Of a stretch of DNA of 64,000 nucleotides, positions 31,801 through 34,800 are shown in pieces. The position numbers are program-made. The DNA comes from an uncultured Candidatus Rokubacteria bacterium. Lineage in GTDB: Bacteria > Methylomirabilota > Methylomirabilia > Rokubacteriales > CSP1-6. Where the stretch lies: NCBI GenBank assembly GCA_963789955.1, contig CAWBMV010000006.1:384001-448000 (forward strand). The letters run 5' to 3'. Each line of letters begins with the position of its first letter. Within the stretch, counting starts at the first letter, position 1.

Positions 31801-34800
31801 TTCGGCGGCGCGATCACCTCGGTGCTCTTCAACATCCCGGGGGAGCCGTGGTCGGTCGCCACGACCTTCGACGGCTATCCGCTGGCGCGGCAGGGGCAGG
31901 GGGGCCAGGCGCTGACCGCCGCCTTCACCTCCTCGTTCATCGGCGCGCTCTTCTCGATCGTCCTGATCACGTTCTTCGCGCCGCTCTTGGCCGAGATCGC
32001 CCTGCGCTTCGGACCGCCCGAGTTCTTCGCGATCCAGCTCCTGACCTTCTCGAGCTTCATCGGCCTCGGGCGGCGGCGATCCGCTGAAGTCCCTGGTGTC
32101 GATCGTGCTCGGATTCATCCTGGCCGCCGTCGGGCTCGACATCGTCACCGGCCAGCTCCGGATGACGTTTGGCTTCGTGGACCTCATGAAGGGCTTTGAC
32201 TTCATCGTGGCGGTCATCGGGCTCTTCGGGATCGGCGAGATCCTCCTCAGCGTCGAGGAGGGGCTGAGCTTCAAGGGCGCCGTCACCGGCATGAACCTGC
32301 GCGTGGTGCTCGACACCTGGAAGATCTTGCCGCGCTATGCGCGCACCTTCGTACGCGAGTGCCTTCATCGGCTTCTGGATGGGGTTCAAGCCCGGCGGCG
32401 CCACCCCCGCCTCGTTCATGAGCTACGCCTTCGCCAAGCGCTTCTCGAAGCACCCCGAGCGGTTCGGCAAGGGCGAGCTCGAGGGCGTGGTGGCCCCGGA
32501 GACGGCCGCCCACGCCGCCGGCGTCGCGGCGATCCTGCCGATGATCACCCTCGGCATCCCCGGCTCCCCGACGGCGGCGGTCATGCTCGGCGGGCTCATC
32601 ATCTGGGGTCTGCAGCCGGGACCGCTTCTCTTCACGGAGAAGCCCGACTTCGTCTGGGGGCTCATCGCCAGCATGTACACCGGCAACATCATCGGCGTCC
32701 TGATGGTGCTGGCGTTCGTGCCGTTCTTCGCGGCCATCTTGAGGATCCCGTTCGCGATCCTGACGCCGCTGATCGTCGTCGTGTGCGCGATCGGCTCGTA
32801 CGCCGTCCACAACAGCATGATCGACATCTGGTACATGCTGATCTTCGGGGTGATCGGCTACGTGTTCAAGAAGCTCGACTACCCGCTCGCGCCGCTCGTG
32901 CTGGCCCTGGTCCTGGGCGACCTGGCCGAGAACGCGCTCCGCCAGAGCCTGATCATGTCCCAGGGCTCGCTCGCGATCTTCGTGTCGCGCCCGATCGCCG
33001 GGGTGATCACGGCCGTGGCGATCTTCTTCTTCGTGCTCCCGGTGCTGACGCCGTGGTGGCGGCGCATGCGTGGGACCACGGTACCGCCGGCGCGGCCGAG
33101 CTGATGGCGCTGCTCAGCGACCCCGAATTCTGGATCCGGTTACTGGGTATCGGTGTGTTGAACCTCCTCCTTTCGGGCGACAACGCCCTGGTCATCGCGC
33201 TGGCGGTGCGCGCGCTGCCGAAGCGAAAGCGGGTGCAGGGGCAGGTCTGGGGCGCGGTCGGCGCGGTCGTCCTCCGTCTGATCTTCGTGGGGATCGTCAG
33301 CGTGCTGTTGAGAATCCCGCTGCTCCAGCTGGTCGGCGGGCTCCTGCTCGTGTGGATCGCGGTCAGGCTCGTCCGGCCGGAGACCGGCGGCGACAACCAG
33401 GTCCGGCGGGGCGCGTCCTTGTGGGAGGCGATCTGGATCATCATCGTGGCCGACGTGACGATGAGCCTCGACAACGTGCTCGCGATCGCGGCGACCGCCC
33501 ACGGTGATTTCCTCCTCGTGATGTTCGGCATCGGCCTCTCGCTGCCGATCGTCATCTGGGGCGCCGGGCTCCTGGCGATCCTCATGAACCGCTTCACGTG
33601 GATCGTCTGGCTGGGCGGCGGCCTGCTCGGCTACGTCGCGGGCGAGATGGTGATCGGCGACCCGCTCGTGCAGCGCTGGCTCGCAAACGGCGCGACGGTG
33701 CTCCGCTATGTCGTGCCCATCACCGTCGGCGTGGCGATCACGGGGCTCGGCTGGTGGCTCGGGCGCGGGCATCGCCACGCGCACGTGGCGGAGAATCTCT
33801 GAGGCGCCGATGAGCGCGCCCGAGCGTCGGCGAACGGGGGATCAGGCCGTCGAGCTTGGACCGATCAAGTCGACGCGGATCTACGAGGAGATCGTCCGAC
33901 AGGTCAAGCAGCTGATCTCCGAAGGACGCTTCAAGAGCGGCGATCGGCTGCCCCCGGAGCGCGAGCTCGCCGAGAAGTTCGTCGTCAGCCGCACCTCGGT
34001 GCGCGAGGCCCTGCGCGCCCTGGAAAGCCTCGGCCTCATCGACATCCGACCGGGCGAGGGGACGTTCGTCCGCGAGGTGTCGATCGACGCGCTGATCGGT
34101 CCACTGGCCCTCGTGATGACCTCGCAGCGCGAAGCGATCGGCGAGCTCTTCGAGGCCCGTCGGGTGCTGGAGCCGGCCATTGCCGCGCTCGCGGCGAGCC
34201 GCGCGACGCCGGACGAGGTCCAGGAGATGGAGCGCATCCTCGAGGACCAGGCCCGGGAGATCGCCGAAGGGCGCACCGGGCTCGCGCAGGACGCGGCCTT
34301 TCACGCCGCGATCGGCACGGCCGCTCACAACCGGGCGATCACGCGGCTCGTGCACGCGATCATGGATCTCCTCACGCAAAGCCGCGAGGAGTCGATCAAC
34401 ACCCCGGGCCGACCTACGTCGCTCGCATCAGGACCACCGGCGCATCGTCCAGGCGATCGCGCGTCGCAATAGCGCCGCCGCGCGGCAGGCGATGCTCGAC
34501 CACCTGGTCGCCGTGGAGGCGCTCGTGCTCGGGCCGGCATCTCAGCGACCCCGAGGCGGGCGCTCGGGCGCTTGACCGGGTCGGTGTCGCCCCGTATACT
34601 CCGCGTCGTGATTCACACGACGTCGCGAGTACCGCTTCTGGGCCTGATTCTGCTGGTACTGCCAGCCCTGCCTGGAGCATCCGCGACGTAGACCGACAAC
34701 GGATGCCACGGGCGGGGGACGGCCCGTGGCGACTGAAACCTCAAAGGCCACGGGTCGACGACCCGTGGCCTTTCGTGTTTGTGGGACCGCACTCCAGGAA

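What a model noticed while it worked through the whole genome (the two positions that open the first line are those of the whole stretch)
34570..34790. Leaderless Leu/Ile/Val-rich leader peptide with terminator and antiterminator: a translation-coupled attenuator ahead of [...]
An uncalled 27-codon ORF (C6:418608-418691) starts a few bases behind a -10 hexamer, is rich in Leu, Ile and Val, ends in a nearly invariant LPGLPGASA tail and is followed by two mutually exclusive hairpins, the second a terminator. It lies before ppdK, which heads ilvB-ilvN-ilvC-leuB. A second leader of this kind precedes leuA (C36:129454-129528).
Evidence so far: The element matches 11 of 17 other genomes of the family and none of 19 of other families; ppdK follows in 15 of 15 loci; the peptide was read out in 10 of these 15 (22-27 aa, 7-12 Leu/Ile/Val), each followed by the repeated GCCACGGG/CCCGTGGC arms and a T run. 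The leuA leader keeps its frame, leucines and terminator in the one relative that matched, of 5. No Rfam family.
(Added by a program. Inside this text positions count along the whole contig: contig position 384,001 is position 1 of the stretch shown here. "Call 12" and the like, gene names such as g00115 and contig names such as C1 are that model's own, and its searches are not shown. The text may have been shortened before it was handed on; [...] marks where a part breaks off. The agent that wrote the report below was given it as the finding of a first reader that could run no searches.)

Follow-up and report, generated by a model that had tools for sequence, protein, structure and literature searches.

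The report
Branched-chain amino acid attenuator in Rokubacteria
In uncultured soil Rokubacteria, a tiny uncalled gene rich in Leu, Ile and Val codons most likely works as a classical ribosome-driven switch for a pyruvate-kinase-like enzyme (PPDK) and the branched-chain amino acid genes, and the same RNA switch, rewritten with Phe/Tyr/Trp codons, guards aromatic amino acid synthesis.

Summary
Observation confirmed. Window 34572-34783 holds a promoter, a near-leaderless 27-codon ORF and an intrinsic terminator ahead of ppdK-ilvB-ilvN-ilvC-psd-pssA-leuB-asd in a Rokubacteria genome. It was read at 87 loci of the family. Best reading: a his-type six-segment transcription attenuator (A:B, C:D, E:F terminate; B:C, D:E read through). 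Two corrections. The two hairpins are not mutually exclusive; D:E is the antiterminator. The invariant LPGASA tail is RNA arm B, not an arrest peptide: rare codons are locked, B:C shows compensatory changes, and amino acid changes that keep pairing are tolerated. New here: the same five-arm scaffold occurs once more in this genome, before aroF (DAHP synthase), with Phe/Tyr/Trp control codons. That aromatic form extends across the phylum, so one scaffold was probably duplicated and recoded. The leuA leader uses a different scaffold. A second promoter behind the terminator is conserved (75 of 83 loci), so control is probably a boost on basal expression. No Rfam family and no paper were found; the scan's own notes held no earlier finding of this element. 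No experiment exists. The mechanism is known; the lineage, scaffold and PPDK target are new.

The parts
34572..34600 (+). P1 promoter: -35 TTGACC, 17 nt spacer, -10 TATACT
   Evidence: 10 of 12 match; a TAnnnT hexamer lies 6-12 nt before the start in 85 of 85 leaders
34608..34691 (+). leader ORF, GTG start, 27 codons, no Shine-Dalgarno; control codons (Leu/Ile/Val) densest at codons 13-16
   Evidence: an SD-like word was found in 1 of 85 leaders
34620..34627 (+). arm A (outer part): protector arm, pairs with the 3' part of B when no ribosome is present
   Evidence: MFE; A:B 80% paired, 5 of 9 pairs with changes on both sides
34667..34689 (+). arm B = the 'LPGASA' tail; pairs with C (14 bp) or with A
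   Evidence: B:C 98.5% paired, 3 of 14 pairs with changes on both sides; codons locked
34701..34716 (+). arm C; pairs with B (read-through) or with D (termination)
34722..34730 (+). arm D; pairs with C, or with E as antiterminator
   Evidence: D:E 100% paired but nearly invariant in ilv loci; A-U to G-C change in the aroF paralogue
34743..34783 (+). E:F intrinsic terminator hairpin (14 pairs) and T tract
   Evidence: median -25.9 kcal/mol and 5-9 T in 10 nt in 84 loci
34856..34885 (+). P2 internal promoter (TTGACA-18-TAACAT) behind the terminator
   Evidence: found in 75 of 83 leader loci and as the only promoter in loci without a leader
34927..37638 (+). ppdK, pyruvate phosphate dikinase; first regulated gene
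   Evidence: TIGR01828 above cut-off
37670..39419 (+). ilvB, AHAS large subunit; 31 nt after ppdK; split by a 1-nt insertion near 38377, probably an assembly error
   Evidence: contigs of 2 of 4 runs lack that base
39419..41036 (+). ilvN (39419-39997) and ilvC (40029-41036)
41036..44598 (+). psd, pssA, leuB, asd: rest of the putative operon

Best explanation
A classical ribosome-mediated transcription attenuator of six-segment (his-type) design. P1 makes an RNA that starts at or within a few bases of the leader start codon. When Leu, Ile or Val tRNAs are short, the ribosome stalls on control codons ending about 7 codons before the tail Gly. Arm B stays free and captures arm C, arm D pairs with E, the terminator cannot form, and ppdK-ilvBNC-psd-pssA-leuB-asd is transcribed. 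When they are plentiful, the ribosome covers B, C:D forms, then E:F terminates. P2 behind the terminator gives basal, unattenuated expression. PPDK is probably included as a pyruvate supply for AHAS (inferred). The cassette is a paralogue of a phylum-wide aroF attenuator whose control codons are Phe/Tyr/Trp. Shown: sequence, conservation, covariation, codon bias, gene context, modelled switch. Inferred: transcription start, translation, termination, amino acid response, PPDK direction, direction of duplication.
For: Control codons match the products. Leu/Ile/Val make up 37% of 85 ilv leaders against 23% of genome proteins, with only 4 aromatic residues in all 85; 23 aroF leaders have 28% Phe/Tyr/Trp. 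Ile is ATT in 80% (genome 6%) and Val GTA in 38% (genome 1.6%). Helices covary: B:C 14 cells with double changes against 2.6 in shuffles; joint ilv+aro alignment 59 against 16, including the D:E pair. Ribosome-mask folding: C:D forms in 84 of 84 ilv RNAs with the A site at -5 or later from the tail Gly, and in at most 13% at -16 to -7; Leu/Ile/Val density peaks at -10 to -7; 23 aroF leaders switch at the same place. The five-arm pattern occurs exactly twice in the genome, before ppdK and before aroF. ilvB follows ppdK in 50 of 57 long loci; the other 7 end earlier. Four loci have no P2, so there the leader transcript is the only visible source.
Against: No experiment, and RNA contigs were uninformative. 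P2 is kept in 75 of 83 loci and at least three lineages lack the leader, so attenuation is dispensable. D:E is invariant within ilv loci and its complementarity follows from the repeat itself. The untranslated state is ambiguous: C:D is favoured in half of 84 RNAs. An equilibrium fold cut after E left D:E favoured at the stop codon in 48% of 81 RNAs, so the off state relies on C:D forming first. The T tract in this genome is interrupted. Related Val/Ile/Leu-rich leaders in other families precede genes that do not make these amino acids. In Streptomyces coelicolor a similar-looking ilvB leader did not respond to codon changes (PMC1262725). Genomes are related, so counts overstate independent events.
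Confidence: 0.88

Rival explanations
1. Nascent-peptide arrest: the LPGLPGASA tail stalls the ribosome in response to a metabolite, and the stall sets the RNA switch.
For: The tail is the most conserved part; its Gly is kept in 85 of 85 leaders; many aroF leaders also read PGA.
Against: Synonymous sites are frozen on rare codons: GGA 81 of 85 (genome 8%), GCA 74 of 84 Ala (3%), TCC 77 of 82 Ser (17%), while an upstream Gly at -11 uses all four codons. L to P, L to S, P to S, A to V and S to P occur, mostly with pairing kept (1175 of 1190 cells pair). The stop position shifts in some loci. aroF tails vary (RSGA, RPPA, CPSA, CPQA). In the model a stall in the tail gives termination, not read-through.
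Confidence: 0.06
2. The unit is mainly a terminated small RNA or small-peptide gene. ppdK-ilv is driven by P2, and attenuation is real but physiologically minor or vestigial.
For: P2 is conserved in 75 of 83 loci and stands alone in 19 of 20 loci from genomes chosen for lacking a DNA match; at least three lineages lack the leader.
Against: B:C, whose only apparent use is to prevent termination, is under compensatory selection. Codon identity tracks the downstream pathway. Four loci have no P2. The enteric his operon also has internal unattenuated promoters (PMC3896937).
Confidence: 0.04
3. A protein- or ligand-binding RNA switch in which the ORF is incidental.
For: High nucleotide conservation of the arms; ambiguous fold without a ribosome.
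Against: The frame is intact with in-frame length changes in 85 of 85 parsed leaders (parsing required an open frame), control codons are swapped between paralogues, and no riboswitch or T-box family matches.
Confidence: 0.02

Closest known systems
Enterobacterial his operon attenuator (hisL; AB, CD, EF versus BC, DE)
   Same: Same six-segment logic with EF as terminator and BC+DE as the read-through state, and internal promoters that escape attenuation (PMC10989985 passages; PMC3896937 passages).
   Different: No sequence match in Rfam. Control codons are Leu/Ile/Val or Phe/Tyr/Trp. The leader has no SD, whereas hisL has one. Arms C/E and D/F are direct repeats.
Corynebacterium glutamicum ilvBNC attenuator (ilvL) and actinobacterial ilvB leaders
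   Same: Branched-chain control codons, near-leaderless start (+1 one base from the start codon), AHAS operon target, internal promoters (PMC11857589 abstract and introduction; PMC1262725 part 1 of 3).
   Different: Three-hairpin (four-segment) model and a 15-aa leader directly before ilvB; here 24-30 aa, an extra hairpin pair, and ppdK (often a DHDPS-family gene too) between leader and ilvB. Homology was not tested by alignment.
C. glutamicum aroF leader peptide (Phe-Tyr-Phe)
   Same: An aromatic-codon leader before a DAHP synthase gene (PMC4046766 passages).
   Different: Reported as putative; no shared scaffold with the ilv leader is mentioned in the passages seen. Here ilv and aroF leaders are demonstrably homologous RNAs.
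E. coli ilvGMEDA and ilvBN attenuators (recalled, no call)
   Same: Leu/Ile/Val-sensing leader peptides before AHAS genes.
   Different: SD-led leaders in Gammaproteobacteria; no Rfam match to this element; no ppdK.

Membership tests
Classical ribosome-mediated transcription attenuator | Short conserved ORF at the 5' end of a biosynthetic operon | tested here: met
   87 of 90 loci; ilvB downstream in 50 of 57 long loci
Classical ribosome-mediated transcription attenuator | Control codons for the pathway's products | tested here: met
   Leu/Ile/Val 37% against 23%; aromatic swap before aroF. Caveat: first gene is ppdK
Classical ribosome-mediated transcription attenuator | Intrinsic terminator with U tract | tested here: met
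   (sequence criteria only)
Classical ribosome-mediated transcription attenuator | Antiterminator that excludes the terminator and depends on ribosome position | tested here: met
   B:C covariation, D:E change across paralogues, modelled switch; computation only
Classical ribosome-mediated transcription attenuator | Measured read-through response to amino acid limitation; leader translated | not testable with these tools
   RNA runs held only as contigs
his-type six-segment attenuator | AB/CD/EF versus BC/DE structures | tested here: met
   A:B is the weakest (80% paired)
Rfam leader, riboswitch and T-box families | Score above a family's gathering threshold | tested here: not met
   best E 0.19 in the window; none at threshold in 6 further loci
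Actinobacterial ilvB leader (ilvL) | Leaderless or near-leaderless start | tested here: inconclusive
   -10-to-start 6-12 nt, SD-like word in 1 of 85; genome-wide TAnnnT peak at 6-10 nt; no start site mapped
Actinobacterial ilvB leader (ilvL) | Sequence homology of leader and hairpins | not tested
   no actinobacterial leader was aligned
Ribosome arrest peptide | Conservation at residue level with free synonymous sites | tested here: not met
   tail codons 88-100% one codon; residue changes tolerated

The most novel reading that the evidence does not exclude
One Methylomirabilota-specific attenuator scaffold has been duplicated and reprogrammed. An ancestral aroF attenuator (Phe/Tyr/Trp), whose C:D hairpin was itself the terminator, gained a second terminator copy to give the six-segment form. 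A copy was placed upstream of the existing ppdK-ilv promoter near the base of one Rokubacteria family, with control codons rewritten to Leu/Ile/Val. This puts a central-carbon enzyme (PPDK) under aminoacyl-tRNA sensing; in sister families Val-rich copies do the same for acyl-CoA and malate synthase operons.
Probability: 0.5. Interest if true: 0.62.

Novelty: new variant of a known kind. Interest (0 to 1): 0.45.

Why it matters
It gives the first concrete regulatory mechanism I could find for amino acid synthesis in an abundant uncultured soil lineage, and a new RNA family absent from Rfam. It is a natural specificity-swap experiment: the same RNA switch with different control codons before different pathways, which bears on how attenuators originate and change specificity. 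It predicts that pyruvate supply through PPDK is tied to branched-chain amino acid demand, and it flags Val-rich copies before catabolic operons as leads to new regulons. The mechanism itself is textbook, which caps the interest.

Tried and rejected
Rfam scans of the window and 6 loci: nothing at threshold. NCBIfam on the peptide: 0 families. RNA reads: 4 runs, contigs only, no start, end or level can be read; one contig spans 34200-34713 but may be DNA. Equilibrium folding cut after arm E separated the states in this genome but poorly across relatives; the cut after arm D was used instead, and both results are reported. Alignment A2 held one row with wrong coordinates and was replaced by A3. 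The Leu-rich reading of this genome's aroF leader was rejected: a 1-nt insertion shifts the frame and relatives read Phe/Tyr. My interim idea of a single late gain in part of the family was rejected: the ppdK tree needs 4 changes and leader-bearing rows are basal. Model search outside the phylum: 3 of 44 genomes had weak hits, none with a leader. No antiterminator was resolved for the leuA leader; the masks were one base off. No leader was seen before leuC or two ilvD-like genes (by eye). Pyruvate kinase was found in 3 of 5 genomes with no link to the leader. One Pfam query (protein 17) used guessed coordinates and gave nothing; repeated correctly. Paper searches with no relevant hit: Rokubacteria+attenuator 0, Methylomirabil+attenuator 0, Rokubacteria+leader peptide 1 unrelated by its listing, PPDK+ilvB+attenuat 2 unrelated by their listings.

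Full report
Organism and context. PpdK of the window is 96% identical to a record titled Candidatus Rokuibacteriota, and the next best records are Methylomirabilota. The genome has 6.77 Mb in 38 contigs and carries several single-base indels. NCBIfam names the genes after the element as ppdK, ilvB (two frames), ilvN, ilvC, psd, pssA, leuB and asd, and the gene before it as a GntR/FadR-type regulator. ppdK ends 31 nt before ilvB.

Observation. The element is as described: TTGACC-17-TATACT, 7 nt, GTG at 34608, 27 codons, TAG at 34689-34691, two G+C-rich hairpins and a T tract, then a second promoter-like site at 34856-34885. The RNA folds better than 200 of 200 shuffles, z = -4.7. A DNA search matched 95 of 151 genomes of the family at a loose E of 0.01 (the tally includes three unpublished genomes and some matches to flanks only). 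Of 90 loci fetched, 87 held the leader (86 parsed by script, one read by eye), two held a paralogue and one was spurious. Statistics use 85 leaders: the 86 parsed minus one from an unpublished genome. Leaders are 24-30 aa with 7-13 Leu/Ile/Val. ppdK follows in 83 of 85. ilvB follows ppdK in 50 of 57 long loci, and the other 7 end earlier. Many genomes carry a DHDPS-family gene between the two.

Anatomy. There are six segments. A (34620-27) pairs with the end of B. B (34667-89) is the peptide tail and pairs over 14 bp with C (34701-16). C alternatively pairs with D (34722-30), D with E (34743-56), and E with F (34760-73), the terminator. On 73 aligned sequences B:C is 98.5% paired, with 14 cells changed on both sides against 2.6 in shuffles; slid controls pair 33-43%. 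A:B is 80% paired with 5 of 9 pairs changed on both sides; C:D is 99.5% and E:F 97.5% paired. D:E is 100% paired but almost invariant, so ilv loci alone say little about it. Sequences are related, so these cells reflect a handful of events.

The tail is RNA. Tail codons are frozen on choices that are rare in this genome: GGA 81 of 85 (genome 8%), GCA 74 of 84 Ala (3%), CCC 76 of 82 Pro (29%), TCC 77 of 82 Ser (17%). An upstream Gly at position -11 uses all four codons. The commonest change is synonymous (GCA to GCG), met by T to C in arm C in 9 aligned sequences. Residue changes L to P, L to S, P to S, A to V and S to P occur, and 1175 of 1190 B:C cells still pair. An arrest peptide would show the opposite pattern. 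The tail Gly is invariant, so a small peptide role is not excluded.

Control codons and geometry. Leu/Ile/Val make up 37% of leader residues against 23% in genome proteins. Ile is ATT in 80% (genome 6%) and Val is GTA in 38% (1.6%). I folded the transcript cut after arm D, with the ribosome-covered part forced open. C:D formed in 84 of 84 RNAs when the A site was at -5 or later from the tail Gly, and in at most 13% at -16 to -7. Leu/Ile/Val density peaks at -10 to -7 (0.83-1.0), just before the switch. Against this neatness: without a ribosome C:D was favoured in only half, and a fold cut after E left D:E favoured at the stop in 48% of 81 RNAs. The off state therefore depends on C:D forming before E emerges.

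Start. The -10 hexamer lies 6-12 nt before the start codon (mode 9; 7 here) and 1 of 85 leaders has an SD-like word. Genome-wide, TAnnnT peaks 6-10 nt before ATG (45-68 counts against about 20 further away). Leaderless or near-leaderless initiation is thus likely and common in this organism, but no start site is mapped. A near-leaderless ilvBNC leader is known in C. glutamicum (PMC11857589, introduction).

A paralogue with other control codons. A scan for the five-arm pattern found 2 sites in the genome: this one and C16:36026 (minus strand) before aroF, a DAHP synthase. That leader matched 82 of 151 family genomes. In the 30 best loci aroF follows in 28 (2 end at contig ends) and the leaders read like MSTSTPYFGFYFYFFGEVRPGALT. 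In 23 parsed leaders 28% of residues are Phe/Tyr/Trp, against 4 such residues in all 85 ilv leaders (7 loci were not parsed and this genome's copy was dropped as frameshifted). Promoter geometry and switch point are the same. In a joint alignment the arms change in concert, including the D:E pair: 59 cells against 16 in shuffles.

Distribution. A covariance model of both forms hit 91 of 93 family genomes, 0 of 10 in the sister family f2, and weakly in other families. Twenty weaker family hits all precede aroF. Of 24 distinct hits in other families, 11 precede aroF with aromatic leaders, 1 precedes an aldolase plus dehydroquinate synthase II with a FWYYYY leader, 9 have Val/Ile/Leu-rich leaders and 3 were spurious. 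In many of these C:D carries its own T run, which suggests that the six-segment form arose by duplicating a terminator (inference). The Val-rich copies precede a sigma-54 activator and acyl-CoA operon, a malate synthase, or D-glutamate-cyclase-family genes, or end at contig ends; this is unexplained. Outside the phylum 3 of 44 genomes gave weak hits without leaders.

The second promoter. P2 is found in 75 of 83 leader loci. Four loci lack it entirely and four lack its -35. In 19 of 20 loci from genomes chosen for lacking a DNA match, only a P2-type promoter lies before ppdK or the DHDPS-family gene. A PpdK tree of 64 rows needs 4 changes, with leader-bearing rows basal in the family when rooted on two f2 rows: one gain near the family's base and three losses is the simplest reading, but the root is thin and the search was the quick one. 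Attenuation is therefore an optional layer over basal expression, as with the internal promoters of the his operon (PMC3896937, passages).

leuA. It precedes a yeast-type leuA. It is a different scaffold: the model and the five-arm scan do not hit it, and I could not resolve its antiterminator.

What is known. Rfam has no match. Full-text searches found no paper with Rokubacteria or Methylomirabil together with attenuator; two searches gave only unrelated listings. The library lacks most subscription papers, including older comparative surveys of attenuators that I recall but did not see. Leaders before ilvB and aroF are known in Actinobacteria, and in S. coelicolor the ilvB leader did not behave classically (PMC1262725, part 1 of 3). 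The scan's notes gave only a neighbouring oxalate operon and nothing on this element. Supplements were not read.

Verdict. It works like a his-type attenuator (confidence 0.88) and meets every testable feature of classical attenuators, without being a member of any curated family. The mechanism is known. The scaffold, its two specificities, the PPDK target and the lineage are new: new variant of a known kind, interest 0.45.

Noticed in passing
G000:C16:35865-36066 (minus strand); L172, L198-L227: Paralogous attenuator before aroF with Phe/Tyr/Trp control codons; in this assembly a 1-nt insertion shifts the leader into a misleading Leu-rich frame.
   Followed up: yes
L366-L369 (family f9): Val-rich leader with the same B:C motif and tandem terminators before a sigma-54 activator, Zn-dehydrogenase, FabH-like, acyl-CoA dehydrogenase and methylmalonyl-CoA mutase genes.
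   Followed up: partly
L371, L370, L377 (families f8, f6): Val/Leu-rich leaders of this scaffold before malate synthase, or before small unknown proteins and D-glutamate cyclase and hydantoinase family genes.
   Followed up: partly
L372 (family f4): Leader ending FWYYYYS with tandem terminators before a DeoC-family aldolase and 3-dehydroquinate synthase II, the alternative entry to the aromatic pathway.
   Followed up: partly
G000:C36:129454-129528; L173-L197: leuA leader of a separate scaffold (ends LASLSLN or LLLT, hairpin at the stop, terminator), before a yeast-type leuA with patchy distribution.
   Followed up: partly
window 34415, 38377, about 41500: Frameshifts in gntR, ilvB and psd; the first two are absent from independent contigs, so probably assembly errors.
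   Followed up: partly
between ppdK and ilvB in many loci (e.g. L349:4732-5616): A DHDPS-family aldolase gene, with remnants in some genomes, and in some f2 genomes standing where ppdK is missing.
   Followed up: partly
whole genome G000: TAnnnT is enriched 6-10 nt before ATG of coding frames, suggesting widespread leaderless translation in Rokubacteria.
   Followed up: partly
intergenic stretches in L033, L041, L044, L059, L066, L085: A recurring G+C-rich palindromic repeat lies between genes, sometimes in tandem copies; REP-like.
   Followed up: no
L088, upstream of a thrS-like gene: A hairpin with a long T run lies between a tRNA gene end and the thrS-like gene; possibly just a terminator.
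   Followed up: no
window 27700-34575: Oxidoreductase, tripartite transporter, TerC-like and GntR genes run straight into P1 with no terminator seen; upstream transcription could enter the leader.
   Followed up: no
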